Shown: positions 17,866 to 47,206 of the stretch, piece by piece
Layout: each line of letters opens with the position of its first letter
How positions within the stretch are numbered: the stretch's first letter is position 1
Source: Escherichia phage T5_ev219
Sequence record: NC_134263.1
Reading direction: 5' to 3' (one strand)
DNA length: 64,000 nucleotides
Translations under genes and position numbers: made by a program
Notes under the pieces: generated by a model
Database searches by the model: none
The model's input: only the letters and a program-made list of their open reading frames with translations
What the model was told of the DNA's origin: nothing

Positions 17866-17894
17866 ATTATACAGAAACTTAGGCATTTTAGCAA
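17866..17894 (-). promoter_or_regulatory. sigma70-type promoter of the conserved T5-early family
   Basis: Minus-strand TTGCTA -35, 17-bp spacer, TATAAT -10, AT-rich upstream. Confidence 0.6.
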
Positions 17895-18002
17895 ATAAAA
17901 CTTTTAATTAAAATGCCTAGTCCTGTACCAATAGCAATACAAATGATTATAAGTATTGCTATCGCCTGTATGATTCGTTTAATAATAACCTCAGCTATAT
18001 AC

Positions 18003-18596
18003 TTAGACATTTATATCGCCACGCAATACAGCAGCTACGTCTTCTCCTATTTGTAATACCTCGCCGGTAGTACAATTAACCACTCTATCGTAACTAGTAA
18101 ACTTACCAGACACAATATCCTCTAGTGGAATTGGAGTTCTACTCATTTCAAATGAGACATTAATATAACGTGGATCACGTAAAGAAGTAGTATGTACATG
18201 TCCGTGAATATTTAGTTTGCCACGAAGTTCATTAGGGTGCAAAGGGCAGTGAGATAGCCAAAACTTTTTGCCACCTCCAGTCTGTTTGCCTAGAGCTTGA
18301 ATACCGTCATAAACTTCCGCTAAGTCCCTAATACTCAGTCCTTGACGCTCCGCATCATGATTACCCATAATGAGTTGATTAGGGACATTGTGGATAACCG
18401 ACTTTAATTTGGCCAGACCTTCACGACCTACTGCAATATCTCCTAGCAAAATAAGTTTTGTTCGTTTACCAATATGCTTGGATAAAGTATCTAGAATATA
18501 CTCATCGTGCTCTTTCATGTTCTTAAACCACGGACGGAAACGTAGTGCTCCAGGGTGGTCTAAGTGCAAGTCTGACCAGAATTTAACCTTCATCAC
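18003..18596 (-). CDS. calcineurin-like metallophosphoesterase
   Basis: 197 aa; motifs DLHLDH, GDI, GNHD, GHVH. Confidence 0.65.
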   Translation of the reverse strand: MMKVKFWSDLHLDHPGALRFRPWFKNMKEHDEYILDTLSKHIGKRTKLILLGDIAVGREGLAKLKSVIHNVPNQLIMGNHDAERQGLSIRDLAEVYDGIQALGKQTGGGKKFWLSHCPLHPNELRGKLNIHGHVHTTSLRDPRYINVSFEMSRTPIPLEDIVSGKFTSYDRVVNCTTGEVLQIGEDVAAVLRGDINV

Positions 18597-18880
18597 TTAC
18601 TCCTTTTTTGTATTAAATTATCAATCCAGGTAGTTAATACTCTAGTTTTAAACTCCTCGGGAGTCTCTCCTTCCTTAAGGTCTACCTCATTAAGGTAGGT
18701 AGTAAGCCTTGTTTCTATCTCTATTTCAGCAGGAGAATTAAAACAAAAATTGACTGCTATTCCAGAATATATTACTCCGGTATCTCCTTTGACGAAAGCA
18801 TTAACTAATGCTCTCCAACGAAGGGCATCAATACGCATTGCTCGTAATTCTTCTTGTACTTCTTTCATTCTATCATTCAT
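18593..18880 (-). CDS. hypothetical protein
   Basis: 95-aa ORF. Confidence 0.5.
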   Translation of the reverse strand: MNDRMKEVQEELRAMRIDALRWRALVNAFVKGDTGVIYSGIAVNFCFNSPAEIEIETRLTTYLNEVDLKEGETPEEFKTRVLTTWIDNLIQKRSK

Positions 18881-19755
18881 TAAAGAATCCTCTGTACACC
18901 ACAGCTATCTTCTCGAAGCGTGGTAAATGTTGTGATTTTCCCAGTTTCATCATTAACTTGCGCAACCGTCAACCGCCCGTTGAAAACACCGCCAGTATCT
19001 AGGTAAACACGGTTTTTATAAAGAAGTGGGTAAGGTACTCCAGTATGCCCGTGAAACACGAAATCTACCCCTTTAACTTCTGGCACTTCTACCATGTATT
19101 TTTCTTTAAATCCTGCATAACGCTGGAAATACGGATGTTCCTCACCGTTTTTGGACAAGTAGAAACCTATTTCTTGGATTACATCTCGATCCCATAAGTA
19201 TGGTTCAACATGGTATCCAGGATGGTCGTGTGGGTCTTCCTTAGCTGCTTCTACTTGTGCAATAAGATTATCCCATACTGGGGTTTCTACTTCATTACCA
19301 CATTCTTTGTACGTAAAAGGTACACCACCATGAACAACACCAAACTTCTTACCACGATGTCTAACAGTTAGGAATACTGGCATTTTTTCAGCCATATCTT
19401 CGGCAATATTTTTAATGGTATCCGCGTCTAGCTCATTCATAGCCCACATACCGCCATTATACATCCAGTTAGCCCAATCTCCTACAATCATAAATTGGTC
19501 ATGATTACCACGAGCGCTACAGAAACGTGGATTATATAGGAATTTGGCTAGAACTTGTAGGTTCTGCGTGCCCCGATCAATTAAATCCCCCACGCATACA
19601 ACGCAATCTTTCTTGCCATTATAGCCAGCTAATTGTAGTGCATCTTCTAGTAAATCGTTGCATCCATGAATATCGCCAACAAAGAATAAGTTAACATCAT
19701 CAGGTACTACTAGTGTTTTATGCACATTAAATTCTTTTTTCATAATTATTCCCAA
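18880..19755 (-). CDS. Ser/Thr protein phosphatase (PPP family)
   Basis: 291 aa; motifs GDIHG, GDLIDRG, GNHD. Confidence 0.7.
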   Translation of the reverse strand: MGIIMKKEFNVHKTLVVPDDVNLFFVGDIHGCNDLLEDALQLAGYNGKKDCVVCVGDLIDRGTQNLQVLAKFLYNPRFCSARGNHDQFMIVGDWANWMYNGGMWAMNELDADTIKNIAEDMAEKMPVFLTVRHRGKKFGVVHGGVPFTYKECGNEVETPVWDNLIAQVEAAKEDPHDHPGYHVEPYLWDRDVIQEIGFYLSKNGEEHPYFQRYAGFKEKYMVEVPEVKGVDFVFHGHTGVPYPLLYKNRVYLDTGGVFNGRLTVAQVNDETGKITTFTTLREDSCGVQRIL

Positions 19756-19991
19756 ATAACATTTAAAATAGTTGTACCATAGTTATTAGATAGTTTGAGA
19801 GTATAACCCTCTTTATTGAGGGCTTTTATAGCTTCATAACTAATTTCGTCACGATTAAGCTGTACAAAAGAACCTCCAATCTCTACAGAAGATACTATCC
19901 TCCGCTTAACCCATCTATACGTTTTCTTTCGGCTCTTAAGGGACGCGGCTCTATTTATCCTAGCTAAACGTTTTGCTTGTTCTGCTAACAT
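19746..19991 (-). CDS. hypothetical protein
   Basis: 81-aa ORF. Confidence 0.45.
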   Translation of the reverse strand: MLAEQAKRLARINRAASLKSRKKTYRWVKRRIVSSVEIGGSFVQLNRDEISYEAIKALNKEGYTLKLSNNYGTTILNVIWE

Positions 19992-20018
19992 TTAATCCTC
20001 CTATCAATCTATACAAAT

Positions 20019-20047
20019 ATTATACCAAAATTTTTAGCAAAAAGCAA
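20019..20047 (-). promoter_or_regulatory. sigma70-type promoter of the conserved family
   Basis: Minus-strand TTGCTT, 17 bp, TATAAT. Confidence 0.55.
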
Positions 20048-20088
20048 GTAAAATAAAAGCCTGATCAGCTAAGATCAGGCTTTGTTTA

Positions 20089-20379
20089 TTAGTCTTCTGG
20101 ATTATCATCCAGGAAATTTTTAATAGCTTCGTGCATAGTTTCTTTACGAAGCTGACGTCCAATCAAAATATGGTTAGCTTCTACTCGACCATTAGGTAAG
20201 CGATCTGCCAGAACTACTACGGGAACTTGACGTACACCAAATTTCTGCATTAATTCTGTATTATCAGTCTCTTTATGGATTTCCAAATTATAGTCATTGA
20301 CTACTTTATCAAATACTGGCTCAAACATTTTGCAAGGATTGCAAGTAGAACCTTTCAATAGATATACTAATTTACTCAT
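20089..20379 (-). CDS. thioredoxin/glutaredoxin-like protein
   Basis: 96 aa; CNPC active-site-like motif near N-terminus. Confidence 0.5.
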   Translation of the reverse strand: MSKLVYLLKGSTCNPCKMFEPVFDKVVNDYNLEIHKETDNTELMQKFGVRQVPVVVLADRLPNGRVEANHILIGRQLRKETMHEAIKNFLDDNPED

Positions 20380-20803
20380 AGTTATTAATGGCCTCTAAGA
20401 AGTTTTTCATAGTTTTTACGGTTGCGGTGCTCAGATCAAGATTTACACCCAAACACTCGGTTAATGCTTCCTGATAAGGAGCCTTCAATCTGCCTTCCGG
20501 GACTTCTACCTTTTTATACTCTTTATTTTTGACCTTTTTAATCATAGTCTCTAGTACAAGAAGTGGTAATTTAGCACCTTCAATATCCGTACCCAAAAGT
20601 TCAGTTAAAATTTTATTAAGATCAAGACGAGTTAACTTTTTGCCCTTAGACATAGGTGCACCTACCTTTGTATCAATAGATTTTTCCGCTTTCTTTTCGA
20701 GCTTTTTGTACTCAGGAGAGTCATGATCACGGAGTGCAATGTTTAGCTCGTAATGTGGTATACGAAAATGTTCCGCCATTTGAGTGTAGAAACGATCAGA
20801 CAT
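20372..20803 (-). CDS. hypothetical protein
   Basis: 143-aa ORF. Confidence 0.5.
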   Translation of the reverse strand: MSDRFYTQMAEHFRIPHYELNIALRDHDSPEYKKLEKKAEKSIDTKVGAPMSKGKKLTRLDLNKILTELLGTDIEGAKLPLLVLETMIKKVKNKEYKKVEVPEGRLKAPYQEALTECLGVNLDLSTATVKTMKNFLEAINNYE

Positions 20804-20878
20804 AATATATACCTCTCTTAACTAATTTATGTATATATTATATAATAACTAGGGCTAAAAGTCAACTACTTTTTTATC

Positions 20879-23207: not shown

Positions 23208-23960
23208 TTATCCAACTAGTGGTTCTAGCTCTAAGTCACAGAAGTTATAAACTTCTAGTTTAAGGTTATTGATACCATCGAATTTATTAACTAATTCGTG
23301 AGTAATATATTTTGCAGGAATACCACTTTCAGATGGATGATCTGATTTAATAGTGAACTTCTGCTCAGCGGGTACTACATTTACTATCAAAGAGTCCATA
23401 TCTAAATGGTTTGTTTCTCTGAGTAGCTCTCCTTCATTGGGGAATCTAACATCTGTTATTACGGCGACGTCTGGGTCGTCTTTAGCGATGGATTGCTCCA
23501 GAATTACGAGCCAAATGCGTTCATGCACCAGCTGCCTTCCTAGCTCTGTCCCTACGAGCTGTAACATTTTTCTCGGAGAAATAAATAAACTATAAAGTCC
23601 ATCTTCTTTAATCTCTGAGATAAGTTGTTGAGGATTAAGATATTTTTCCTCAAAAATAGGCCAAACGTACGAGAAGTCTTCAAACTTATCGATACCGTAC
23701 TTAAACCACACATCTCTGGCTCGCTCCAATTGAGATTGTGTGACCATAAACCATTGGTCAATCTCTTTTCCCTTGCGCTCTCCTAGAAACTCTGGAGTTA
23801 CACCGAGGATTACGGATGCAAGTTCATAAACGGGCTTAGCAAAACTATAACGACGGGGTAAACACGTTGGATACGTATCATTACACCAATCGATAATTAA
23901 TTTTGCAACGGTATCTTTTCCTGCACCTGCTTCGCCATGCAGACCCACTAGTACACTCAT
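23208..23960 (-). CDS. dnk: deoxynucleoside monophosphate kinase
   Basis: 250 aa; N-terminal P-loop GEAGAGKDT. Confidence 0.65.
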   Translation of the reverse strand: MSVLVGLHGEAGAGKDTVAKLIIDWCNDTYPTCLPRRYSFAKPVYELASVILGVTPEFLGERKGKEIDQWFMVTQSQLERARDVWFKYGIDKFEDFSYVWPIFEEKYLNPQQLISEIKEDGLYSLFISPRKMLQLVGTELGRQLVHERIWLVILEQSIAKDDPDVAVITDVRFPNEGELLRETNHLDMDSLIVNVVPAEQKFTIKSDHPSESGIPAKYITHELVNKFDGINNLKLEVYNFCDLELEPLVG

Positions 23961-24493
23961 TTATTAAGTTCCTCTAAAGTTGGTAAAGATTTTGTAGAAT
24001 CAAAAGTTTCTATAACAGCATTTTCACCGTGCAATTGTAAACGAAGTTCATTGGCTCTTTTAACGGCGGATCCTAGATATAGGTAATCAAAGTGACCTCC
24101 GTATATATTATTACCCTTAGAATTAGCAACGTTTACTTCCCACTTCTGGTCACGTTTCTTCCAGCTAACTCCTAGATAACCAGATTTACTTCTGGCAGCT
24201 TTATTTCTCTGGTTTTCTTGGTTATTGGACTCTCTAAGATTTAGCCAACGATTGTCACCACCTACGCGGTTTATGTGATCCACCATCTCAGGAAAATAGC
24301 CCTCCATATAAAGGAATGCTAGCTGATGTGCTAGGTAAGGTTTTCCATCTACCTTTATTTGTATATACCCATCTTTCCTAAGTGTACCTGCAATATTACC
24401 CGCTTTTTGATTACCAACACTCACTAATCTAGTAAATAATCCAGTATCAGGGGTATATTCAAGTAATTCCTTTAATCTTTCTTGTGTCACCAC
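23957..24493 (-). CDS. HNH homing endonuclease with AP2-like domain (paralog 2)
   Basis: 178 aa; near-identical termini to 16517..17053. Confidence 0.75.
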   Translation of the reverse strand: MVTQERLKELLEYTPDTGLFTRLVSVGNQKAGNIAGTLRKDGYIQIKVDGKPYLAHQLAFLYMEGYFPEMVDHINRVGGDNRWLNLRESNNQENQRNKAARSKSGYLGVSWKKRDQKWEVNVANSKGNNIYGGHFDYLYLGSAVKRANELRLQLHGENAVIETFDSTKSLPTLEELNK

Positions 24494-24494
24494 A

Positions 24495-24848
24495 TTAATC
24501 TTTCCTATTGTTAATTGGTGGATAATATACTAAACAACGTTTTTCTTGCAAATCTTGGCGATAGAAGCAAACCATACTTGTCAGTCGTGAAATATATGAA
24601 TATTCTGCCTCACGGCATTTTGCCAACATATTCCAATCTTTATATGGTACAACAACTACTACGCCATCTTCCCCATTTGTAGCTAATTTCTTTTCAAACT
24701 TAAAGTCAAAGCTACAAGGTTGAAGTCCTTTAGGCCAGTCTACATGAGCTGTTGGTAGCTCATGTGTGGGTTCTGACTCTATTTCTTGTGCACAGCCTGT
24801 GATTGTGATTGCGGCTGCGAGCAGTATTCCAAGTTTCCAGTTAAACAT
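24495..24848 (-). CDS. lipoprotein (possible o-spanin)
   Basis: 117 aa; signal peptide with lipobox ITGC; 5' end overlaps upstream TM/coiled-coil gene. Confidence 0.45.
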   Translation of the reverse strand: MFNWKLGILLAAAITITGCAQEIESEPTHELPTAHVDWPKGLQPCSFDFKFEKKLATNGEDGVVVVVPYKDWNMLAKCREAEYSYISRLTSMVCFYRQDLQEKRCLVYYPPINNRKD

Positions 24849-25228
24849 GCTAATCTTTCCTCGAACTCCTTACTCTGCTTTTTAGCAATTAATGTTACCA
24901 ATCCAGGCTTTGCGGCTATAATATCTTGGCGGTTAAGTGCTTTATCAAGCTGACCAATTTTCTTATCTAAGTCTGCTTGAGAAATATTGTTCATCGTGAA
25001 ATACTGATTCATTCTAGTCTCACGAAGTTCGCTTTCAGCTTTCACCTTGTTAAGGGAAGTCTCTAGAGAAGAGATCTTTTTAGTAGCTACCGCAAGATCT
25101 CCCGCCAAAGTCTCCACTTTATTTATTAAGTGATAAGCACCGAACCCGATGCCTATCGCTAGACCTGCTCCCAGGATATACCACTTACCGCGCCATATTC
25201 CTGAAAGAAGTTTTTGTATCAAATCCAT
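24779..25228 (-). CDS. membrane-anchored coiled-coil protein (possible i-spanin)
   Basis: 149 aa; N-terminal TM then coiled-coil region. Confidence 0.45.
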   Translation of the reverse strand: MDLIQKLLSGIWRGKWYILGAGLAIGIGFGAYHLINKVETLAGDLAVATKKISSLETSLNKVKAESELRETRMNQYFTMNNISQADLDKKIGQLDKALNRQDIIAAKPGLVTLIAKKQSKEFEERLACLTGNLEYCSQPQSQSQAVHKK

Positions 25229-25883: not shown

Positions 25884-25914
25884 ATTTAATCCTCTTGCCT
25901 CAATCTATAAACAT

Positions 25915-25943
25915 ATTATACAAAAGTTTGGGCATCTAAGCAA
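25915..25943 (-). promoter_or_regulatory. sigma70-type promoter of the conserved family
   Basis: TTGCTT, 17 bp, TATAAT on minus strand. Confidence 0.55.
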
Positions 25944-26037
25944 CTAAAATTTTATTATAAAAATAGCCCAGTCGCAAAAGTGCAGGCTGGGCTTTGTCAT
26001 TATTTGCTTTTGCTAGTAAGTTGATTTAGTATCAATC

Positions 26038-27654: not shown

Positions 27655-27683
27655 TTCAAACCTCTCTCATCAATTTATAAATA

Positions 27684-27712
27684 TATTATAGCAAGAAAAG
27701 AGAGGTTTAGCA
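27684..27712 (-). promoter_or_regulatory. sigma70-type promoter of the conserved family
   Basis: TTGCTA, 17 bp, TATAAT on minus strand. Confidence 0.55.
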
Positions 27713-27730
27713 AATGAATTATTTCAGAAT

Positions 27731-29793: not shown

Positions 29794-29823
29794 TTGGTTT
29801 CCCTCTCATTAATTTATATAAAT

Positions 29824-29853
29824 ATTATAACAAGAAATAAGAGAGAAGGCAAA
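29824..29853 (-). promoter_or_regulatory. sigma70-type promoter of the conserved family
   Basis: TTGCCT, about 18 bp, TATAAT on minus strand. Confidence 0.5.
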
Positions 29854-29867
29854 TGAATTTTTAAATT

Positions 29868-31952: not shown

Positions 31953-32238
31953 AAATTCTTTAGTTTACTAAGGCTATTAGCTCGGCGTAACTACAGCACC
32001 TTCGCTTCGAGCGGAAGGAACTGCGTCATCTCGCAAACCCAATACACTATTCAGTTGCCGCTGAATCTAGTGGACTAATCTAGAACTTCTCCCAAATCGT
32101 AGGAATCGTGCTTTTTGGCAGCCAGTCCTAGGTCGAGCTAATACCTTAGTGAACTATGATGAGGATTTCTCCCCATCAATTTATATAAATATTATAACAA
32201 GAAATTAAGCATTAAGCAACTGCGTTTTTTCTTGAAAT

Positions 32239-32831: not shown

Positions 32832-33042
32832 TTTGCTTTCCTTCCCTTCACTTTATAAGATATATTATACAGAGAATTAAGCAGAATAGCAAATGAATTT
32901 TTAATAAATTTACTTATTGTGTAGGCCACCTGGAGGCTATGAACCCCACGGCTGACAAAGAAGTTTGCGAGACCTCTCTTAAATGCCAGAATAGACCCGC
33001 CGATCTATCGGAACCTACATAATAAGTAAACTTTATAGTGTC

Positions 33043-34897: not shown

Positions 34898-34946
34898 TAG
34901 CTTCTCCAGTTCAATTTATATAATTATTATATAGAACTTTTGGAAA

Positions 34947-35231
34947 CTAAGCAACTACATTTTTTAAGAATTTGATGTCTTTCTTCTTCTTATATTTCCA
35001 CGTTAATGGATTCTGTCGATTGTGAACGCTTGAGATCTTCGTCTCGTCAAAGTTCTTCAATATCATGTAATCACAAGATAATTGTTCTAATGGAATGTGA
35101 TCACCGTCAAAAGCATATACATAAGGCTGTTGACTAGCACGATAATGATAGACTTTGTTAATTCTACGTTTCAGCGACTTATCAGCGCAGTAAATAAAGA
35201 AGTTTTCAGGATGCATCAGCATCTCCTTCAA
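34947..35231 (-). CDS. hypothetical protein
   Basis: 94-aa ORF. Confidence 0.45.
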   Translation of the reverse strand: MKEMLMHPENFFIYCADKSLKRRINKVYHYRASQQPYVYAFDGDHIPLEQLSCDYMILKNFDETKISSVHNRQNPLTWKYKKKKDIKFLKNVVA

Positions 35232-35574: not shown

Positions 35575-35702
35575 ATATTTAAAAGTATTCAAATACTAGT
35601 TTAAACACTTTTAAATATGTTTCCGAATTAGATAACTATTATACCAAGTTTTAAGGCACTGAGCAAGTCAAATTTTAAAGAACTTGCTCAGTGCTGTATT
35701 AG

Positions 35703-35978: not shown

Positions 35979-36068
35979 TAATTAACTCCTTCATCAATTT
36001 ATATAACTATTATACCAGAAATTTAAAGTAAAAGGCAAGTACATTTTTAAAAATTCTGTTTGGAGGAG

Positions 36069-37117: not shown

Positions 37118-37206
37118 TGGCGGAAGAAGTGGGAATCGAACCCACAAGGCTATATTTCAAACCGACAGATTAGCAATCTGCTGCAATACCGTTATGCTAT
37201 TCTTCC
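37118..37206 (-). tRNA. tRNA-Ser (GCT), class II
   Basis: 89 nt; perfect acceptor; loop TTGCTAA. Confidence 0.65.
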
Positions 37207-37310
37207 GAATTTATAAGATATATTATATTAGAAATTTAGCTTCATAGCAAGAAAATTTTTCAAGTTTTCGGTAGACATCTCATCCACATCTACAGGAGAA
37301 ACAAATCCAT

Positions 37311-37745: not shown

Positions 37746-37920
37746 ATCTGGTTCCTCTCTCAAATTTATAGATATATTATACAGAGAATTTAGCATTCAA
37801 GCAATCAAATTTTTTAACTTTTTAGAGGAAAATCATAGGGCACTTAAGGGCAGCAGATAAGTGGTGAGGACCAAAATTTGTGACCCCACTAAAAATCCGG
37901 GGGCAATTTTTAAAGACCCT

Positions 37921-39686: not shown

Positions 39687-39687
39687 C

Positions 39688-39754: not shown

Positions 39755-40702
39755 TTACTTGTTACGCATATCCATAATCATCTGGCCATCGTAACCAGTG
39801 CCAACCACAGTCTGCGGTACGCCACCTTGATATTTCTGAGCACGAATCATCTCAACTTCCAGTTGTTTCCAACGAATCATCTCAGGAGTAATGGTACGTT
39901 GCAGTGCGGCGTTAGCTTCAGCTTCTTTCTTAGCTGCGTACAGTTTAGCATCTGCGTCACGTTCATTAGCGATAGCTTGGTTGTTGCGAGCTTCACGATC
40001 TGCTTCTGCTTGTTTAACTTTTTGCTGTGCTTCCTGTTCAACACGAGCTAATTCAGCTTTAGCAGCATTAACCTGTTCTTCACGAACTTTGGTATTCTGT
40101 ACCTGTTCCATGATTACCGGTGGCAAAGTAATATCCTGAAGGAATACCTGCTTAACTGTGTAACCATATGGGCGTGCATACTCTTCAACTTCCTGTTGAA
40201 TTGCAGTTTGCAATTGAGCCTGAATTTTAGCATCAAACAAATCTTGTGCTTTAGGTACAGACTTACCAAACTCACGAATAGTAGACAGTAATTTTTCAGT
40301 TACATACTTGTCTAGTGCCTGATCCTGAGTACCTGCATTAATACGGTTAATCGGTGCCTTAGAACCATCAAACTGCAACATAACAGTCAGGTCAACAGTG
40401 GATTTAAACTTATCCTGACTAGGAACCTGAAGTTTATCTAATTTTACAGCAATATCTTTTGTACTGAAAGTATCGAAAGATGCAAACGGGTTTACAATAT
40501 GGAAACCAGGTAATACTGGATTAGGGTCTACTTTACCCAGGAATGTTTGAGTTTTAACCGTACCATCAGAAACAATAGTATATGAATTAAAAGCTAGGAT
40601 TAAACCTGCTAAACCAACTACAGCACCAATCCCCCAACGTTTAATAGTACGAATTACTTTCTGCTCAGAAGTTAGTTCTTTCATATTTTTAGTATTAAAC
40701 AT
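39755..40702 (-). CDS. SPFH/band-7 (prohibitin/HflC-like) membrane protein
   Basis: 315 aa; N-terminal TM, SPFH-like core, long Ala/Glu/Gln-rich coiled-coil tail; AAGGAA RBS. Confidence 0.65.
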   Translation of the reverse strand: MFNTKNMKELTSEQKVIRTIKRWGIGAVVGLAGLILAFNSYTIVSDGTVKTQTFLGKVDPNPVLPGFHIVNPFASFDTFSTKDIAVKLDKLQVPSQDKFKSTVDLTVMLQFDGSKAPINRINAGTQDQALDKYVTEKLLSTIREFGKSVPKAQDLFDAKIQAQLQTAIQQEVEEYARPYGYTVKQVFLQDITLPPVIMEQVQNTKVREEQVNAAKAELARVEQEAQQKVKQAEADREARNNQAIANERDADAKLYAAKKEAEANAALQRTITPEMIRWKQLEVEMIRAQKYQGGVPQTVVGTGYDGQMIMDMRNK

Positions 40703-40736: not shown

Positions 40737-40811
40737 TGGCCGAGGTGACAGGATTCGAACCTGCATAAAGGAATTTAGAAGACTCCTGCCTCTCCCTTAG
40801 ACTACACCCCG
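40737..40811 (-). tRNA. tRNA-Arg (TCT)
   Basis: Anticodon stem GGAGT/ATTCC; loop CTTCTAA; CCA encoded. Confidence 0.65.
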
Positions 40812-41313
40812 TTTAAGTATTTTTAAGAACTCTCGTAAAAACTCTTAAAAATACAGACGATACCGGGAGAGTCATAAGTCTCACTCATTAAGTATTTCAA
40901 GACAAAATACAGTAACGTCTATTATTTTCCAGTTTAAGTCAGGGTGACTTAGTGGTTATGTCCTGCGGTATATTGAGGACTCGGTTAGGCTTGGGGTCAT
41001 GACTTCCCGCCTTTTGCTGCTACTCAACAGGAGTTATCGCGAATTACCTGTGCTATTGTGCACCATTAGTGACATCTCTCATGTCAGCATTTCCCACTTT
41101 GTGGATAGCTTGAAAAACTACTCCGATATGGAGAAAGAACTTCACTATCCTAGAATACCTTCTAAAGTTCTTCTTTAGCCTGGACATAGTTAAATCGTAA
41201 TAAAACTATTCAGCAGACTGGTTGGTTAGTCTGGAACCAACTACCGCGTGGTTTAGGCAGTGCGCAACTAACCTCGGAAGCTTTTACGTTAAAAGCATCA
41301 GTTATCCAGTTCT

Positions 41314-41385
41314 TACCGACCGTAGGATTCGAACCTACATCTTCCACCAGTTACGGCTTGGTAATACCAATTATACTAGGACGGC
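41314..41385 (-). tRNA. tRNA-like element (no encoded CCA; possible pseudogene)
   Basis: T arm GTAGG-TTCGAAT-CCTAC; acceptor with one mismatch; non-canonical anticodon loop. Confidence 0.3.
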
Positions 41386-41645
41386 AGTGTTACTACATAA
41401 GTGATTTCCACACCCCACTATTTATAAATTAGAGAAGAGTTTAGGGGAGAGGTTTCAGACGCCCCATTTTACACGTTCTAGCCACTAACCGGGATTGCCG
41501 CCCCCTGTGTACTAGTTTTCCAACTAACCCACCGACTCTATTCAATGCGCTCCGGTTGGGATTCTGCACTCAGCGTAATCGGCTCGCTGTTCTCTAATTT
41601 ATGAATATATTATACAGAATTTATAGGCATTTAGCAAATAAATTT

Positions 41646-42089
41646 TTAATTAAATTCGCCAGCAATCTGAGCAGCAGTACCACCATCATAACGCCCAGGA
41701 AATTCTTCCTTAATCGCTTTCATCAGCATACCTTTTGTAATTCCAGGGTTTAGCTTAACTAATTCTGCAAAGTATTTACGAATCTCAGTATCAGATAACT
41801 GAGGAGGCAGATACTCCTGCAACCACTTATTTAGAATGTATTCATACTGAGCGGACTGCAAGCTATAACTATCAAGATCTTGACCATGAAGTTTAGCTTT
41901 CATCTGGTTAATGCTTTTTAGTTGAGCTTTGAGATAAGACACAAATTGTTCAGAAGTGATGAAATCTTTATCAATACGCTGAAGATCCCCGATTATGGTC
42001 TGATAGCTTTTAGCGACTTCTTTATCAGAACCATTAAACTTAGAATCCTGCAAAGCTCTACGCAAAACATCTAAAATATTCTCTTCCAT
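41646..42089 (-). CDS. GatB/YqeY-domain protein
   Basis: 147 aa; C-terminal GITKGMLMKAIKEEFPGRYDGGTAAQIAGEF resembles YqeY C-terminus. Confidence 0.5.
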   Translation of the reverse strand: MEENILDVLRRALQDSKFNGSDKEVAKSYQTIIGDLQRIDKDFITSEQFVSYLKAQLKSINQMKAKLHGQDLDSYSLQSAQYEYILNKWLQEYLPPQLSDTEIRKYFAELVKLNPGITKGMLMKAIKEEFPGRYDGGTAAQIAGEFN

Positions 42090-42260
42090 TATTTCATTCC
42101 TAACGCTTGGTTAAAAGATTGTTCTGTCATAACTGCTGAGACTTTGGCGAAATCAAACTTTTTAGGGTTCGTAGTGATCTCAGCAACGTTGGAAGTTTTA
42201 ACAGTTTTCGTAGTACGAATACCGCGAGTATTAACACCAATAATTACAACTGATTTCATA
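42090..42260 (-). CDS. small hypothetical protein
   Basis: 56-aa ORF; stop overlaps downstream start (TAATG). Confidence 0.4.
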
Positions 42261-42327
42261 TTTCGCTTCCTCTCATTAATTTATGAAAGTATTATACAGA
42301 AGTTTAAGTATTTAAGCAAATAAATTT

Positions 42328-42795
42328 TTAAGTTTTAGTGACAACAGGCTTATAAAATGTATGTCCCTTAATCTTAGTTGTTTTCTTAAACTTCTTTGTC
42401 CAGTATGGTTTATCTTTACCACTATGGAAGTATAAAGCTCCATGTGTAGGATCTTGTGGTAAATCAACGTAGTATATCACTCTAGCTAAATTCTTGGCGG
42501 TTTGCCAAGCCTCATCAGTTTTATCAACTTTTGGTCTCTTAGATACCCAAGAGAACTGGTTAGACTGATATACTACTTTACAGTAGGAATCTGGGAATTT
42601 ACCGGAGTTTACACGGTTTTTAGTAACATGTGCAATCGCCGTCATTCCCTTTATGCCCTCACCACGACTTTCGAAATAGATATTTTTAGCAATGCAATCT
42701 ATTTCTTTTGCATCGTGCGATGCCTGACTACTAAAGCTGAAGGTAAGGGCAGCTACTAAAAGCAAAGCTGCCTTCATTCTTTTTACTCCTGCCAA
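42328..42795 (-). CDS. secreted cell-wall hydrolase, SleB/CwlJ-like
   Basis: 155 aa; N-terminal signal peptide; CIAKNIYFESRGE...AIAHVTKNR...GALYFH pattern. Confidence 0.6.
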   Translation of the reverse strand: MAGVKRMKAALLLVAALTFSFSSQASHDAKEIDCIAKNIYFESRGEGIKGMTAIAHVTKNRVNSGKFPDSYCKVVYQSNQFSWVSKRPKVDKTDEAWQTAKNLARVIYYVDLPQDPTHGALYFHSGKDKPYWTKKFKKTTKIKGHTFYKPVVTKT

Positions 42796-43100
42796 TCATA
42801 TTCAACACGATTGGGATTTTCTTTATACCCTAAGTCAAGCAAATCATTACGCATAGTTTGCTTAGCTACGGGATTCGAGGTTACTAGTACCACTTTCTTT
42901 GGTCTCTGCCCAAATTCTAAGAGTAAACGAAGAATTTGATAACCTTCCATACCATCTACAGCCAAGTCATTATCCATATAAACAAAGTGGCCTGTGGTAT
43001 CAGTTTTATTCAGAAACTCGACAGCGGCTTCTGGGGTTCGAATGATAATGTCCATTCCGTGAAGATTACGCACATCATCAATCAAAATATGAAAAGTCAT
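42783..43100 (-). CDS. stand-alone CheY-like receiver-domain protein
   Basis: 105 aa; ILIDDV acidic pair, YMDNDLAVDGMEG phospho-acceptor region, VVLVTS, downstream Lys. Confidence 0.5.
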   Translation of the reverse strand: MTFHILIDDVRNLHGMDIIIRTPEAAVEFLNKTDTTGHFVYMDNDLAVDGMEGYQILRLLLEFGQRPKKVVLVTSNPVAKQTMRNDLLDLGYKENPNRVEYDWQE

Positions 43101-43542
43101 AATAGCCTCGTTTCATCAATTTAAAAATATATTATACAGATAACTTAATAAATTAGCAAATACATTTTTAAATTGTGAAACTAGTAAACCGATAAACAGC
43201 CTAGAGGCGCCACAGGCCATATCTTATGAGCCATGTACCTTTGATCTAGGGTTTGAATCATCAACGAATACTTTGCATCTTTTAGCTTTAGAAGTTTAGA
43301 AGTTTGAGTTCTTTAAACTTTTCAGCTTTCATACTTAAATGTTGATCTTTGAAGTTGTGTCGGTAATATCAACGACGCTTTGTTCTTACGTGTCAGCTTA
43401 AAAGGCTGGTGTAATAAACATAATCTCCAATAGATTATACTTTATAGTATGGTCAGCGGTCTTATTTAACCTCGTATTTCAACCGCTGCTGCGAGGTAAG
43501 ATGCTTGGGCTTTCGTCTACCGATTTACTAGCTTTTAAATTA

Positions 43543-44234: not shown

Positions 44235-44417
44235 TTACAGACCAATTGCCAGCAGAGTGCGCAGAACAGTATCATTACTGTTATCAATTTTAGGATTAGC
44301 ACGATTTAACAGATCAAAGATTTTCTGGATACCTGATTGACGTTCAGCCATACGACGAATACCCAGATTACGAGTAGCTTTCTTAGCATTTTTACGAACA
44401 TTTTTAGATACTGGCAT
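44235..44417 (-). CDS. small basic protein
   Basis: 60 aa, Lys/Arg-rich. Confidence 0.4.
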   Translation of the reverse strand: MPVSKNVRKNAKKATRNLGIRRMAERQSGIQKIFDLLNRANPKIDNSNDTVLRTLLAIGL

Positions 44418-44487
44418 ATTTGTTTTCCTTTTATTGTTTTCTCAAATTTATGAATATATTATACAGAATTTTGGAGCCGGAAGCAAA

Positions 44488-45189
44488 TCAAATTTTGATT
44501 TTTTCGACCATAGCTGCAACACAATAGCTCTCAACTAAGGCATCAAATGCTGGGTCGTGCTTAACCGGATAGATCCCATAACGAATGGTGTCCATCTTCT
44601 CCATTTTAGCTATTGCCCAGCTAATACCTTCGGTCTCTAGAGCTTTATAACTATATCCAGCTTGCATCCAGAGATTACGAAGAGATCGAACATTACCCAA
44701 GTTCCAGAATTTCCACGGAACTATTTCTTCATTGGTTCCAGCATGGAAAGTGTTTGCAGAGTAGATAGTCATATCAAACTCTGGGCCGTTGCCATAATAC
44801 AAAGCATTCTCTCCTAGAGCCAACTCCATAATATTTTGAGCCATAGAGTAAGCAGCATAGTTAGAGCCGAGTTTATTAGTACAATGATGTTTACCGTTTT
44901 GGAATGCAATCAGCTTTGGATTACGATCGTTCATAGCTTCCATAATGTGGAGGGCAGACGGACTATTCTTAGCTTGACCCATCCAGAATGCTAGAGTAGA
45001 TGCTGTAACTTTAGCACCAGAGTTAAACTGATCTTGCACATCCAAAGTAACAAATACTAGATCAGGGTCTTTATCAATCCCATGCATAGCCACAAAAGCG
45101 AAAGAAGGCATTGCGATATGAGTAGTACCACAATCTCCTGGAGTTCCTAGAGATTCAATATCTAGCATACCAAATGGTTTTACTTTCAT
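44488..45189 (-). CDS. DnaQ-like 3'-5' exonuclease (DEDDh)
   Basis: 233 aa; motif I LDIESLG, C-terminal H-x4-D (KHDPAFDA). Confidence 0.6.
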   Translation of the reverse strand: MKVKPFGMLDIESLGTPGDCGTTHIAMPSFAFVAMHGIDKDPDLVFVTLDVQDQFNSGAKVTASTLAFWMGQAKNSPSALHIMEAMNDRNPKLIAFQNGKHHCTNKLGSNYAAYSMAQNIMELALGENALYYGNGPEFDMTIYSANTFHAGTNEEIVPWKFWNLGNVRSLRNLWMQAGYSYKALETEGISWAIAKMEKMDTIRYGIYPVKHDPAFDALVESYCVAAMVEKIKI

Positions 45190-45454: not shown

Positions 45455-45495
45455 AGTTTCTCCAAATAAGAGGGGCTTTCGCCCCCTGATTTAAA

Positions 45496-45711
45496 TTACT
45501 TGCCCAGCAGTTTAAGGATATTTTCCATAATAGTTTGGGCAGATTTTTCACTCTTGTTGGTTTCAGCCAACTTTAAAGCGAGTTCTTCCTGCTGTTTCTG
45601 AATATCCGCAGCAATTTTTTGATCAGCCTCAATACGAGCTTGAAGCTCATCAGTGATAATGGTAAAGGAAGCAACGATTTCAGTAACGGAACGTGGTTTC
45701 TTAGAGAACAT
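45496..45711 (-). CDS. hypothetical coiled-coil protein
   Basis: 71-aa ORF. Confidence 0.45.
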   Translation of the reverse strand: MFSKKPRSVTEIVASFTIITDELQARIEADQKIAADIQKQQEELALKLAETNKSEKSAQTIMENILKLLGK

Positions 45712-45775
45712 AAAAAATATCCTTGATTAGTTAGAGAATCAGTAGATTGTAGGGGCTCTCGCCCCTATTTATCTA

Positions 45776-46291
45776 TTACTTCGCTTTACGCTTGCGAGCT
45801 GGTTTAGCAGATTTACGAGCAGAATCACCCGTGAACTTAATACCTACACCGTAACACAGAGCACGAACATTATCTTTACTATACTCTACGCCAAAGATAT
45901 TTGGCTTAACAGAACCAAACTGTCCACGAGTATCACGCAATACATCTGCTGTTGGTTTACGCTTCTGGTTAACTGCCTTCTCATAGTCTTTCATAGACAT
46001 ACCATTACGAGAGAACAATTCAGCCCCAGCGTTGAAGCTCAGAGAAACTGGGACAGATTTGTGGCCATAACCCTGTACATAGGTCACAAGGCGGGCTACA
46101 GAACGAGTAGCATTCTTAGCCTTCGGCTTTTGACGAATCGGAGCCGGACGATTCAGTGCCTGTGCAGCTTGAGCATCAGTAGGGTGCTTGCGCAGGTGGC
46201 GTTCCAGACGAGCTTTGCGGTTAGCCTCAGTCTGCGGGAAAGTTTTAACTGTAGTAGCTGCTTGAGTTTTTGCGTTTTTCTGCTTAGCCAT
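45776..46291 (-). CDS. hypothetical basic protein
   Basis: 171 aa, Lys/Arg/Ala-rich. Confidence 0.55.
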   Translation of the reverse strand: MAKQKNAKTQAATTVKTFPQTEANRKARLERHLRKHPTDAQAAQALNRPAPIRQKPKAKNATRSVARLVTYVQGYGHKSVPVSLSFNAGAELFSRNGMSMKDYEKAVNQKRKPTADVLRDTRGQFGSVKPNIFGVEYSKDNVRALCYGVGIKFTGDSARKSAKPARKRKAK

Positions 46292-46374
46292 TATTTGTTT
46301 TCCTTTTTGTTTATCAATTTATGAAGTATATTATACGAGAATTTGAAGCGTTTAGCAAATGAATTTTTTAAAAA

Positions 46375-46653
46375 TTATCTACCAACCATCTTAGCTTGTT
46401 CGGCATCTGAGACATATTGATACGCCCCTTTATTATACGCTGGAGCAGTACACATTTTCTTACGCTCAATCTCTTCTTGAGCTTTTCTTTCGCGTTCAGC
46501 TAATTCTTCGTCCAGGTAAACTAAACGTTGTTCTGGGGGAGGTGGAAGACGTGTTTCTGGCTCACCAATATTAGCCTTTCTTATTTGACGAGGTGATTGT
46601 GCACGTTTTCTCAATGGTTTAAATCCTAATGAATTTGAGTTATAAATTCGCAT
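46375..46653 (-). CDS. hypothetical protein
   Basis: 92-aa ORF. Confidence 0.5.
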   Translation of the reverse strand: MRIYNSNSLGFKPLRKRAQSPRQIRKANIGEPETRLPPPPEQRLVYLDEELAERERKAQEEIERKKMCTAPAYNKGAYQYVSDAEQAKMVGR

Positions 46654-46729
46654 AAAGCCCTCCTCACTTTCAATACGAATATTATACTAAATTAGAGGGC
46701 TTTAAGCAAGAAAATTTTTAATTTATTTA

Positions 46730-47206
46730 TCACATCTCAGCCATTTCAGCTTCAGTAATAACTGTGTTACACAGTGCATCTACAGCTTCATTACCACTAA
46801 TACCAGAATGTCCTTTAACCTTAATAAAGGTAGGATTAGTATTATGAAAGTTGATATACTGCTGTGTTAATTTAAATGCTTCCTGCCAAAGTTCTAGATT
46901 AAGAGGAACTTCACCATCTGCTTTCTTCCAGCCTTTCCTTTGCCAAGAAAACATCCAACTTTCCATACCATTTTTGCAATAAGCAGAATCAGTATAGATA
47001 GCAATTGGTCTATTATCTTTTTTAACGGACCAACGTAGAGCTTCTACAATAGCTGTGAGTTCCATCTCATTATTTGTAGTTTTAGGATTATAACCAGATT
47101 TAGAACCTAAACGATCGTCGTTATCATCATAGACAATAAAACCCCAAGCACCTGGACCTGGATTAGATTTACAAGCACCATCTGTGTAAATGTGGAAAAC
47201 GCTCAC
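46730..47206 (-). CDS. rnhA: ribonuclease HI
   Basis: 158 aa; IYTDGACKSNPGPGAWG, NNEMEL, IYTDSAYC, KVKGHSG motifs. Confidence 0.8.
   Translation of the reverse strand: MSVFHIYTDGACKSNPGPGAWGFIVYDDNDDRLGSKSGYNPKTTNNEMELTAIVEALRWSVKKDNRPIAIYTDSAYCKNGMESWMFSWQRKGWKKADGEVPLNLELWQEAFKLTQQYINFHNTNPTFIKVKGHSGISGNEAVDALCNTVITEAEMAEM

What the first reader, a model, noticed from the sequence alone, without database searches (positions are those of the whole stretch)
17866..46730. One conserved promoter module reused in front of many minus-strand genes
At least 18 intergenic regions (17.9, 20.0, 25.9, 27.7, 29.8, 32.2, 32.9, 34.9, 36.0, 37.2, 37.8, 41.6, 42.3, 43.1, 44.4, 46.3, 46.7, 54.4 kb) carry the same ~60-bp module: AT-rich upstream, TTGCTA/TTGCTT -35, 17-bp spacer, TATAAT -10 and a conserved initial transcribed region. 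The same architecture is seen in the PN25-like promoters at 56.6 and 63.2 kb. ORF-finder N-termini often extend into these promoters or into tRNAs and need trimming.
Basis: partly seen in the sequence, partly recalled or inferred. Interest (0 to 1): 0.45.

Follow-up and report, generated by a model that had tools for sequence, protein, structure and literature searches.

The report
Phage T5 early promoters, rediscovered
The repeated ~67-bp element is real, but it is the well-known family of strong early promoters of phage T5 (including the P_N25 "T5 promoter" used in expression vectors), already mapped and annotated in the T5 reference genome, so it is ordinary.

Summary
TTGCTW-N17-TATAAT occurs 20 times against 0.13 expected by chance. 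A position-weight scan finds 25 copies scoring at least 30 bits (null maximum below -7), plus one 18-bp-spacer variant. Every copy points the same way as the genes downstream of it.

The conserved unit runs from about -47 to +20:
- an A-tract resembling a UP element
- TTGCTW at -35
- a T-rich 17-bp spacer
- TATAAT at -10
- an ATATT-type discriminator
- ATAAATTGA at +1
- usually GAGAGG (Shine-Dalgarno) and a start codon at +22 to +35

The window is a T5-like phage (Tequintavirus). All 26 copies align to promoter features already annotated in T5 record AY543070, including P-F30, P11, P13a/b, P14a/b, P15a/b/c, P16-17, P-D/E33, P-H207 and P-N25. The 63.2 kb copy matches P-N25 exactly from -46 to +22.

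Published work already describes the UP element, the AT-rich spacer, the ATATT discriminator and the escape-promoting initial transcribed sequence. The same consensus appears in distant Demerecviridae genera.

A mobile-cassette alternative (like the PeSLs of T4-type phages) was tested on 32 genomes and is not supported.

The parts
17332..17398 (-). Module copy (-47..+20). The -35 TTGCTT is at 17386-17381, the -10 TATAAT at 17363-17358, and +1 is near 17351. It drives the 17050-17325 ORF (T5.032 ortholog).
   Evidence: Ortholog of T5 promoter 16245-16319.
17840..17906 (-). Module copy; +1 near 17859. It drives ORF 17404-17835.
   Evidence: Ortholog of T5 'promoter P-F 30'.
19993..20059 (-). Module copy whose UP block is the T-tail of the terminator hairpin at 20083-20056. 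It drives ORF 19746-19991.
   Evidence: Ortholog of T5 promoter 18550-18624.
20811..20877 (-). Module variant with a TTGACT -35. It drives ORF 20372-20803.
   Evidence: (30.7 bits). Ortholog of T5 promoter 19368-19442.
25889..25955 (-). Module copy. It drives ORF 25185-25883.
   Evidence: Ortholog of T5 promoter 24443-24517.
27659..27725 (-). Module copy. It drives ORF 27373-27654.
   Evidence: Ortholog of T5 promoter 26722-26796.
29798..29864 (-). Module variant with a TTGCCT -35. It drives ORF 29503-29793, then tRNA-Ile and tRNA-Met.
   Evidence: (54.1 bits). Ortholog of T5 'promoter P11'.
32165..32231 (-). Module copy with no SD-led ORF downstream. It drives a non-coding stretch (annotated as stable RNA 2H in T5), then tRNA-Ala and tRNA-Leu.
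   Evidence: Ortholog of T5 'promoter P13b'.
32838..32904 (-). Module copy with a 7-nt discriminator. It drives the 52-aa ORF 32673-32831, then tRNA-Pro and tRNA-Met.
   Evidence: Ortholog of T5 'promoter P13a'.
34900..34966 (-). Module copy. It drives ORF 34697-34897, then tRNA-Cys.
   Evidence: Ortholog of T5 'promoter P14b'.
35612..35678 (-). Module variant (TTGCTC, ITR CTAATTCGG). It drives the tRNA Tyr-Glu-Trp-Phe cluster, which begins 57 nt downstream.
   Evidence: (33.1 bits). Ortholog of T5 'promoter P14a'.
35983..36050 (-). Module variant (TTGCCT, 18-bp spacer). It drives ORF 35703-35978.
   Evidence: Ortholog of T5 'promoter P15c'.
37196..37262 (-). Module copy. tRNA-Ser(GCT) starts only about 9 nt after +1. 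There is no SD, but the ITR ATAAATTC is retained.
   Evidence: Ortholog of T5 'promoter P15b'.
37750..37816 (-). Module copy. It drives the ORF that starts at 37745. The longest-ORF start at 37796 lies inside the spacer and should be trimmed.
   Evidence: Ortholog of T5 'promoter P15a', for which PMC7472727 reports in-vivo primer extension as an early promoter.
41583..41649 (-). Module copy. It drives a non-coding stretch ('RNAX' in T5), then the tRNAs at 41313-41386 and 40737-40811.
   Evidence: Ortholog of T5 'promoter P 16-17'.
42265..42331 (-). Module copy. It drives ORF 42089-42259.
   Evidence: Ortholog of T5 'promoter P-D/E 33'.
43105..43171 (-). Module copy. It drives ORF 42783-43100.
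   Evidence: Ortholog of T5 promoter 43067-43141.
44432..44498 (-). Module copy. It drives ORF 44235-44417.
   Evidence: Ortholog of T5 promoter 44393-44467.
46304..46370 (-). Module copy with a 7-nt discriminator. It drives ORF 45776-46291.
   Evidence: Ortholog of T5 'promoter P-H 207'.
46655..46721 (-). Module copy with a divergent ITR (ATTGAAAGTGAGG). It drives ORF 46375-46653.
   Evidence: Ortholog of T5 promoter 46337-46411.
48132..48199 (-). Weak variant: TTGCTT (48187-48182), an 18-bp spacer, TATAAT (48163-48158), then ATACTC and AATAAGT. It lies upstream of thymidylate synthase.
   Evidence: Sequence read. Ortholog of T5 promoter 46937-47011. The fixed-spacing PWM did not detect it.
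50748..50814 (-). Module copy abutting the terminator hairpin at 50841-50820. The ITR is divergent. It drives nrdB (49597-50742).
   Evidence: Ortholog of T5 promoter 50061-50135.
54345..54411 (-). Module copy with a longer leader (start codon near +68). It drives the phoH-like gene.
   Evidence: Ortholog of T5 promoter 53638-53712, 100% identical over 154 bp.
56555..56621 (+). Plus-strand module copy abutting the nrdD terminator hairpin at 56532-56556. The discriminator is AGATTT. It drives ORF 56624-56905.
   Evidence: Ortholog of T5 promoter 55708-55782.
59684..59750 (+). Plus-strand module variant (TTGCAG, ITR ATTGAATTGAGAG) with a long leader. It lies upstream of the gene for the replication-origin-binding protein.
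   Evidence: 38.1 bits. Matches T5 promoter 58999-59073 over the aligned core, -35 through about +30.
63225..63291 (+). P_N25 itself: TTGCTT-17-TATAAT-AGATTC-ATAAATTTGAGAGAGGAG. It drives the D2 gene.
   Evidence: Identical from -46 to +22 to the T5 feature 'promoter P-N 25'. The sequence fits the published description of N25 (PMC12464699).

Best explanation
These are the early-class promoters of a T5-like phage, read by the unmodified host RNA polymerase carrying sigma-70.

Each copy is a compact expression cassette, and its parts most likely work as follows:
- An A-tract from -47 to -36 acts as a UP element for the alpha C-terminal domains.
- TTGCTW at -35 and a perfect TATAAT at -10, 17 bp apart, bind sigma regions 4 and 2.
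- The T-rich spacer helps bend and anchor the upstream DNA.
- A 6-7 bp discriminator of the ATATT type is the mark of the early class.
- Transcription starts at the A of ATAAATTGA. This AT-rich, C-poor initial transcribed sequence lets the very tightly bound polymerase escape quickly.
- In the protein-coding copies, GAGAGG (Shine-Dalgarno) follows at +11 to +20 and a start codon at +22 to +35.

About two dozen copies, spaced at a median of roughly 1.3 kb and always pointing the same way as the genes, load polymerase repeatedly along the early region. That region includes the tRNA and stable-RNA clusters. This lets the phage outcompete host promoters once the second-step DNA has entered the cell.

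Shown here: the architecture, its statistical enrichment, orthology to mapped T5 promoters, purifying selection on the hexamers and the ITR, and conservation across the family.

Inferred from the literature on P_N25 and T5: the role of each sub-element and the early timing.
For: - Enrichment: 20 strict matches against 0.13 expected. Twenty-five PWM hits score at least 30 bits, with a null maximum below -7.
- Extended conservation: 32.9 bits lie outside the hexamers, bounded at -47 and +20.
- Orientation: 26 of 26 copies point the same way as the downstream genes. Nineteen of 25 have an SD-led start codon at +22 to +35.
- Orthology: every copy aligns to an annotated T5 promoter, including the experimentally named P-F30, P11, P13a/b, P14a/b, P15a/b/c, P16-17, P-D/E33, P-H207 and P-N25.
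- Literature on N25: the promoter is TTGctt/17/TATAAT with a UP element centred at -49, an AT-rich 'spacer UP', a 6-bp discriminator, and a native AT-rich ITS giving fast escape at +11. The anti-ITS version is about 10-fold worse (PMC12464699).
- Purifying selection against T5 and VSe12: the -10 is 100% identical in both, the -35 is 98.6% and 98.4%, and the ITR is 99.1% and 98.1%, compared with 93.6% and 95.1% in the flanks.
- The ITR is kept in 3 of the 4 copies that drive tRNAs or stable RNAs with no SD. So +1..+9 serves transcription, not translation.
- The same consensus appears in Pectobacterium My1, Proteus PL1 and a Klebsiella relative, whose genomes no longer align with the window as DNA outside tRNA genes.
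- Other promoters in the window (holin/lysis, P12, nrdD) lack the ATATT and ATAAATT elements, so the module marks a specific class.
Against: - There are no transcription-start data for this particular phage. +1 is placed by analogy with P_N25.
- Between close relatives, the spacer and discriminator are no more conserved than the flanking DNA. Their consensus may reflect a compositional or structural preference and not base-specific contacts.
- Several copies deviate: 35638, 46681, 48158, 50774, 54371 and 59696 have divergent ITRs or long leaders. Their strength is unknown.
- Klimuk 2020 labels a 'P11' promoter as pre-early, while the T5 record puts the name P11 on a module copy in the tRNA region. 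I could not resolve this naming conflict.
- The primary papers (Gentz and Bujard 1985; Wang et al. 2005) are not in the held library, so their content is cited only second-hand.
Confidence: 0.93

Rival explanations
1. The modules are mobile regulatory cassettes like the PeSLs of T4-type phages. On this view the repeated promoter (plus terminator) sequences are substrates for recombination that shuffles gene cassettes, and that role, not only promoter function, is why they are so alike.
For: - Four or five copies abut terminator hairpins: 20019, 50774 and 56567, and by T5 annotation 25915 and 59696.
- The tRNA region is hyperplastic.
- 47 of 142 unique indel or replacement events among 32 genomes have a boundary within -60..+30 of a module.
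Against: - 0 of 114 window-side insertion or replacement events have a module at both ends.
- In 16 distinct module-adjacent insertions in other genomes, the only module present is the resident ortholog. The inserted DNA never carries a second copy.
- Boundaries fall at the module edges (-45 to -60 and +5 to +30). That is expected if whole genes are gained and lost at gene junctions.
- Almost every junction in 29.8-37.2 kb is a breakpoint whether or not it has a module.
- Pairwise similarity among copies is barely more structured than a column-shuffled null: sd 0.068 against 0.057 (95th percentile 0.062), and maximum 0.687, equal to the null 95th percentile. This argues against recent copying.
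Confidence: 0.04
2. The promoters are genuine, but the family-wide conserved discriminator and ITR (ATATT...ATAAATTGA) is in addition a recognition element for temporal control. One possibility is the target through which the phage RNAP-binding protein gpT5.026 (or another phage factor) shuts early promoters off. Another is a -10-like element (TAAATT at +2..+7) that causes a sigma-dependent promoter-proximal pause.
For: - The ITR is as conserved between orthologs as the hexamers, and it is shared across distant genera with different hosts.
- Non-early promoters in the window lack it.
- Klimuk 2020 reports that gpT5.026 weakens the RNAP-discriminator interaction, that its loss raises early and lowers late transcripts about 5-fold, and proposes ATATT as the discriminating feature. 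The same paper reports that gpT5.026 is conserved in Demerecviridae.
Against: - The effect of gpT5.026 in vitro is weak, and its binding site is remote from the DNA.
- The escape-promoting role of the native N25 ITS is enough to explain selection on +1..+10.
- The discriminator itself is not more conserved than the flanks between close relatives.
- No pause data exist for these promoters.
Confidence: 0.15
3. The downstream half of the module is conserved for translation and not transcription: an AU-rich, C-poor unstructured leader plus Shine-Dalgarno that acts as a ribosome-loading enhancer.
For: - The leader +1..+25 is 47% A and only 5.6% C.
- GAGAGG lies at +11..+20, with a start codon at +22..+35, in 19 of 25 copies.
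Against: - ATAAATT is retained in 3 of the 4 copies that drive tRNA or stable RNA genes and have no SD. At 37222, for example, the tRNA starts about 9 nt after +1.
- Published ITS swaps change transcription output about 10-fold in purified systems without ribosomes.
This reading is therefore true for +11..+20 but not for +1..+9.
Confidence: 0.1
4. The repeats are a chance or compositional artefact of AT-rich intergenic DNA.
For: The genome is 61% A+T, and generic sigma-70-like matches occur at the chance rate.
Against: - There are 20 matches against 0.13 expected, with 0 of 100 shuffles reaching even 3.
- PWM scores are at least 30 bits against a null maximum below -7.
- The register is fixed, the orientation matches the genes, and each copy is orthologous to a mapped promoter.
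Confidence: 0

Closest known systems
Bacteriophage T5 early promoters (P_N25, P_N26, P_H207, P_D/E33, P_F30, P11 to P16-17): Bujard-lab promoters, annotated in GenBank AY543070 and aligned in Klimuk et al. 2020, Fig. S5
   Same: Everything that could be compared matches: position-for-position orthology (86-100% identity), TTGCTW-17-TATAAT, the UP block, the ATATT discriminator, the ATAAATT(T)GA initial transcribed sequence, and the same downstream genes and tRNA clusters.
   Different: There are only strain-level differences. The window phage is about 93-96% identical to T5 and VSe12. A few -35 or ITR substitutions occur, and gene content next to some copies differs, for example HNH endonuclease genes or tRNAs gained or lost.
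Bacteriophage T4 early promoters ('uber' UP/-35/TGn/-10 promoters; Hinton 2010, PMC2988021)
   Same: It is the same strategy. Dozens of near-identical, multi-element promoters carry consensus beyond the hexamers. Unmodified host sigma-70 polymerase reads them right after infection, so they outcompete host promoters.
   Different: It is a different phage family with its own consensus. T4 relies on a canonical TGn, which only 9 of 25 copies have here. T4 also boosts its promoters by Alt ADP-ribosylation. The T5 module has a distinctive ATATT discriminator and ATAAATTGA start. This is a functional analogy, not shared membership.
PeSLs (promoter-early stem-loop cassettes) of T4-type phages (PMC2839356, PMC4122927)
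   Same: Both are repeated early-promoter motifs, some fused to terminator hairpins, sitting at gene-cassette junctions in hyperplastic regions.
   Different: The defining signature was not found in 32 genomes: no indels are bounded by two copies, and no inserted DNA carries its own copy. Only about 5 of 26 copies have an adjoining hairpin.
UP-element-containing strong sigma-70 promoters (rrnB P1 type; lambda P_R as compared in PMC12464699)
   Same: Both have an A/T-rich block upstream of -35, near-consensus hexamers and a 17-bp spacer.
   Different: Host promoters of this type are individual sequences. They are not a family of about 25 near-identical copies sharing a discriminator and ITS.

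Membership tests
T5 (Demerecviridae) early-class sigma-70 promoters | -35 TTGCTW-like and -10 TATAAT hexamers separated by 17 bp | tested here: met
   Twenty strict matches. Twenty-five of 25 PWM sites have TATAAT, and 24 of 25 have a 17-bp spacer.
T5 (Demerecviridae) early-class sigma-70 promoters | A/T-rich UP-like block immediately upstream of -35 | tested here: met
   9.5 bits over -47..-36. Composition is 47% A, 40% T and 13% G+C.
T5 (Demerecviridae) early-class sigma-70 promoters | ATATT-type discriminator, the early-class mark according to Klimuk 2020 | tested here: met
   A at -6 in 24 of 25, T at -5 in 17 of 25, T at -3 in 22 of 25. It is met as a consensus only: exact ATATT occurs in a minority, and the plus-strand copies have AGATT.
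T5 (Demerecviridae) early-class sigma-70 promoters | AT-rich initial transcribed sequence of the N25 type (ATAAATT...) | tested here: met
   An exact ATAAAT lies near +1 in 16 of 25 copies. An ATAAAT-like hexamer (a list of observed variants, so partly fitted) sits 6 or 7 nt after the -10 in 24 of 25. The +1..+10 block carries 7.3 bits.
T5 (Demerecviridae) early-class sigma-70 promoters | Positional orthology to promoters mapped in T5 | tested here: met
   All 26 copies align to annotated T5 promoter features, including 14 that carry experimental names.
T5 (Demerecviridae) early-class sigma-70 promoters | Transcription actually starts there with host sigma-70 RNAP, with early kinetics | not testable with these tools
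   Available only by inference from T5: the N25 biochemistry and the in-vivo primer extension on P15A.
PeSL-like mobile regulatory cassettes | Composite terminator stem-loop plus early promoter in each copy | tested here: not met
   A hairpin abuts only about 5 of 26 copies.
PeSL-like mobile regulatory cassettes | Indels and replacements between related genomes bounded by two copies (module-X-module against a single module) | tested here: not met
   0 of 114 window-side events have a module at both ends. Sixteen module-adjacent insertions in other genomes contain no second copy.
Extended -10 (TGn) promoters | TG at -15/-14 | tested here: not met
   A canonical TGn is present in 9 of 25 copies. 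Another 9 have TG directly abutting TATAAT, at -14/-13. It is not a defining feature of the module.

The most novel reading that the evidence does not exclude
The transcribed start of the module (ATAAATTGA) and its ATATT discriminator may be more than an escape-optimised sequence. They could be the cis-element that defines the early temporal class across the family. In that reading a phage factor reads them, either gpT5.026 bound to RNAP or a sigma-dependent pause at the -10-like TAAATT, and so switches all roughly 25 early promoters off together at the early-to-late transition.

The evidence here does not exclude this. The ITR is as conserved as the hexamers between orthologs. It is shared by genera that infect Escherichia, Pectobacterium, Proteus and Klebsiella. 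It is absent from the non-early promoters in the window.
Probability: 0.15. Interest if true: 0.45.

Novelty: already known. Interest (0 to 1): 0.08.

Why it matters
As a discovery it matters little. T5 early promoters have been cloned, sequenced and used since the early 1980s, and P_N25 is the 'T5 promoter' of commercial expression vectors and a standard template for promoter-escape biochemistry. They are annotated one by one in the T5 reference genome.

There is practical value for annotating this and related genomes. The PWM gives a clean map of about 26 transcription units, fixes the start codons of the first genes, and shows which tRNA and stable-RNA clusters have their own promoter.

The family-wide conservation of the discriminator and initial transcribed sequence, and its absence from the lysis, P12 and nrdD promoters, gives modest support to the published but unproven idea that this segment encodes temporal class.

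Tried and rejected
1. **Sub-family structure among copies** (a test for duplication or gene conversion). Pairwise identity outside the hexamers has mean 0.478 and sd 0.068, against a column-shuffle sd of 0.057 (95th percentile 0.062). This is only marginally over-dispersed, so there is no clear evidence of recent copying.

2. **Mobile-cassette (PeSL-like) hypothesis.** I tested it first on T5 and VSe12, where 5 of 19 and 3 of 6 gaps touch a module and I estimate about 23% of junctions carry one. I then tested it on 32 genomes. No module-X-module signature was found, so I rejected it.

3. **Generic sigma-70 scan.** It is not enriched, so it does not distinguish these sites.

4. **Literature.** Gentz and Bujard 1985 (PMC214212) is not held. 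Searches for a genome-wide T5 TSS or RNA-seq promoter map found none. The 'P11 = pre-early' label in Klimuk 2020 could not be reconciled with the GenBank 'P11' in the tRNA region, because the supplement is held only as figure legends.

5. **Extended -10.** I first read TGTATAAT as an extended -10. In fact the TG abuts the hexamer in 9 copies and is a canonical TGn in 9 others.

6. Searches were malformed requests. One search failed because several loci share one file, which resolved. The block boundaries were off by one and were corrected.

Full report
**Observation**

The pattern TTGCTW-N17-TATAAT occurs 20 times in the 64-kb window, against 0.13 expected from dinucleotide-preserving shuffles (largest 2). 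Eighteen matches are on the minus strand between 17.36 and 54.4 kb. Two are on the plus strand, at 56567 and 63237.

Aligned in register, the copies share far more than two hexamers. A 79-column weight matrix built from them finds 25 sites scoring 30-73 bits, while shuffled sequence never exceeds -7 bits.

The 29.8 kb site has TTGCCT, and the 36.0 kb site has TTGCCT with an 18-bp spacer. It also adds 20837, 35638 and 59696. The strict scan had already added two unlisted copies, at 17358 and 50774. An 18-bp-spacer variant upstream of thymidylate synthase (-10 at 48158-48163) was found by eye.

The stated range 17866-46730 is too narrow, and there are no copies in 1-17.3 kb. A generic sigma-70 consensus scan is not enriched at all (50 against 53 expected; 56 against 58). 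The non-random signal lies in the extended architecture.

**Anatomy**

With +1 placed 7 nt after the -10 hexamer, as in P_N25, the bias-corrected information content over the 25 copies is:

| Block | Positions | Bits |
|---|---|---|
| A-tract (UP-like) | -47..-36 | 9.5 |
| -35 hexamer | -35..-30 | 8.4 |
| Spacer | -29..-13 | 7.3 |
| -10 hexamer | -12..-7 | 9.8 |
| Discriminator | -6..-1 | 4.2 |
| Initial transcribed region | +1..+10 | 7.3 |
| Shine-Dalgarno zone | +11..+20 | 4.6 |

Conservation is at background beyond -48 and +21. The hexamers carry 18.2 bits, and the rest of the module carries 32.9 bits.

The consensus is tttAAAAaTTtA-TTGCTt-…ct.AAattTt.g-TATAAT-At.T.T-ATAAATT…gAga.g. Other features:
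- A canonical TGn is present in only 9 of 25 copies. Nine others have TG directly abutting TATAAT.
- The leader +1..+25 is 47% A and 5.6% C.
- All copies point the same way as the genes they precede.
- Nineteen of 25 have an SD-led start codon at +22 to +35.

Four copies drive RNA genes instead:
- 32191 drives a stable-RNA stretch, then tRNA-Ala and tRNA-Leu.
- 35638 drives the tRNA Tyr-Glu-Trp-Phe cluster.
- 37222 drives tRNA-Ser, which starts about 9 nt after +1.
- 41609 drives the 'RNAX' stretch, then tRNAs.

Three of these four keep ATAAATT although they have no SD. This separates a transcriptional part (-47..+9) from an optional ribosome-binding part (+11..+20).

**Identity**

The window is a T5-like phage of the genus Tequintavirus. 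The best records are 94-97% identical over 94-97% of a 15-kb query.

The T5 reference record AY543070 carries 75-bp 'regulatory/promoter' features. Every window copy aligns to one of them at 86-100% identity:
- 17866 = P-F30
- 29824 = P11
- 32191 and 32864 = P13b and P13a
- 34926 and 35638 = P14b and P14a
- 36009, 37222 and 37776 = P15c, P15b and P15a
- 41609 = P16-17
- 42291 = P-D/E33
- 46330 = P-H207
- the rest align to unnamed annotated promoters

The 63.2 kb copy is identical from -46 to +22 to the feature 'promoter P-N 25'. The 59.7 kb copy matches T5 promoter 58999-59073.

**What is already published**

Hsu and Han 2025 (PMC12464699) describe N25 as follows. It has TTGctt/17 bp/TATAAT, a canonical UP element centred at -49, a second AT-rich 'spacer UP' centred at -19, and a 6-bp discriminator. 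Its native AT-rich ITS (9 A/T and 2 G/C in +1..+11) supports very fast escape at +11, while the 'anti' ITS is about 10-fold less productive. The window's 63.2 kb sequence fits this description exactly.

Klimuk et al. 2020 (PMC7472727) make four relevant points:
- They state that all known T5 early promoters share ATATT in the discriminator.
- Their Fig. S5 aligns early and late promoters with the UP, -35 and -10 elements and a boxed ATATT element.
- They report in-vivo primer extension for the early promoter P15A.
- They propose that the RNAP-binding protein gpT5.026 acts through the discriminator.

[quoted passage not shown] 2005)'. The finding is therefore a rediscovery.

**Additional evidence gathered here**

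*Selection.* Between the window and T5 or VSe12, identity by block is:

| Block | vs T5 | vs VSe12 |
|---|---|---|
| -10 hexamer | 100% | 100% |
| -35 hexamer | 98.6% | 98.4% |
| ITR | 99.1% | 98.1% |
| UP block | 96.9% | 97.6% |
| Flanks (±150 nt) | 93.6% | 95.1% |

The spacer and discriminator change at about the flank rate.

*Depth.* I anchored only on TTG-N20-TATAAT and looked at what consensus emerged around it. The same TATAAT-A.nT..-ATAAATT-…GAGG consensus and the same C-poor leader appear in:
- Pectobacterium phage My1, subfamily Mccorquodalevirinae (13 hits against 0.55 expected)
- Proteus phage PL1, genus Novosibvirus (17 against 1.1)
- a Klebsiella relative (15 against 0.4)

These genomes no longer align with the window as DNA outside tRNA genes.

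*Specificity.* The other annotated promoters in the window lack the ATATT and ATAAATT elements. They are the holin/lysis promoter at 22.47 kb, P12 at 37.92 kb (+), nrdD at 54.59 kb (+) and its divergent partner at 54.51 kb.

**Rivals**

The most interesting alternative was that the repeats act like the PeSL cassettes of T4-type phages (PMC2839356, PMC4122927) and mediate modular shuffling. I compared the window with 32 T5-like genomes.

Of 142 unique gap events in 17.3-54.5 kb, 47 have a boundary within -60..+30 of a module. None of the 114 window-side insertion or replacement events has a module at both ends. In 16 distinct module-adjacent insertions in other genomes, the inserted DNA never carries a second module.

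Boundaries cluster at the module edges, at -45 to -60 and +5 to +30. That is what gain and loss of whole genes at junctions predicts. In the tRNA region nearly every junction is a breakpoint, whether or not it has a module. Similarity among copies is barely more structured than a column-shuffled null. I therefore reject the cassette model.

A purely translational explanation for the downstream half is contradicted for +1..+9 by the copies that drive tRNAs. Chance is excluded.

The non-exclusive idea that the discriminator and ITR also encode temporal class remains open, either through gpT5.026 or through a sigma-dependent pause at the -10-like TAAATT. I put it at about 0.15.

The claim that ORF N-termini 'often' extend into these promoters holds for only 1 of 19 first genes (37776, where the start should move from 37796 to 37745), plus one extension into a leader (17358). 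Overlap of spurious ORFs with tRNAs is real, with 12 cases.

One reason for the few extensions is that the consensus TATAAT…ATAAATTGA places stop codons in all three frames. This occurs in 14 of 25 copies within -12..+12, against 4.1 ± 1.8 in shuffles.

**Verdict**

The elements are the classical, already annotated early promoters of T5-like phages. Novelty: already known. Interest: low (0.08).

The main caveats:
- No TSS data exist for this exact phage.
- The primary 1985 and 2005 papers could not be read here.
- The 'P11' naming conflict is unresolved.

Noticed in passing
window 37950-39731: This is a GC-richer block (0.47, against about 0.38 in the surrounding DNA) encoded on the plus strand within the minus-strand early region. 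It has its own non-module promoter (TTGACA-17-TAAAGT at 37921-37949, P12 in T5) and a strong bidirectional terminator at 39700-39731. About 7 of the 32 compared T5-like genomes lack this 1.8-1.95 kb block, and others carry different DNA in its place (pnuC and a nicotinamide-nucleotide adenylyltransferase gene in Yersinia phage phiR2-01). It therefore behaves as an exchangeable island bounded by the P15a promoter and the terminator.
   Followed up: partly
window 16517-17053, 23957-24493, 47203-47751: Three ORFs of 178-182 aa coincide with insertions relative to T5 (537-bp and 954-bp gaps). Their size and position match the HNH homing endonucleases annotated at the matching places in VSe12. Conversely, T5 carries endonuclease genes that this phage lacks, for example hegH inserted right after the 50774 promoter.
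   Followed up: partly
window 29800-37200 (tRNA region): The region is extremely hyperplastic. Among 32 related genomes, nearly every gene or tRNA junction is an indel or replacement breakpoint, while the promoter cores (-40..+1) stay intact.
   Followed up: partly
module copies, -12..+12 of each: The consensus TATAAT-N6-ATAAATTGA puts stop codons in all three reading frames within 24 nt. This holds in 14 of 25 copies, against 4.1 ± 1.8 in shuffles and 6% of AT-rich 24-mers in the window. It is probably a by-product of the motif, but it would also stop any ribosome reading through from upstream just before the Shine-Dalgarno.
   Followed up: partly
window 54512-54620: There is a divergent promoter pair. 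One is a perfect-consensus TTGACA-17-TATAAT at 54592-54620 (+), in front of nrdD. The other is TTGCCA-17-TATAAT at 54540-54512 (-). Neither has the early-class discriminator or ITR.
   Followed up: no
window 41313-41386: ARAGORN calls a tRNA-Ser with the unusual anticodon ACT. Relatives annotate the equivalent gene as tRNA-OTHER or tRNA-Sec. It lies inside the stretch that T5 annotates as stable 'RNAX'.
   Followed up: no
window 1-17300: There are no copies of the early module in the first 17 kb, which holds the pre-early (first-step-transfer) region and the first early block. The one annotated T5 promoter that maps here (window about 13.9 kb, TTGACG-17-TATAAT-AAGTTT) is not of the module type.
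   Followed up: no
L035-L043 (viral contigs of about 24, 90 and 140-180 kb): The 315-aa protein encoded at window 39755-40702 has homologs at 75-77% identity on contigs whose sizes do not fit T5-like genomes. This suggests the gene is shared with other phage groups.
   Followed up: no
window 59731-59790: Downstream of the 59696 promoter the leader reads AAAAATTGATTTTGCTAATTTTTCTTGTTTACA, a second promoter-like stretch. By T5 annotation, the first annotated gene downstream (origin-binding protein) starts about 470 nt further on. A tandem promoter or a regulatory leader is possible.
   Followed up: no
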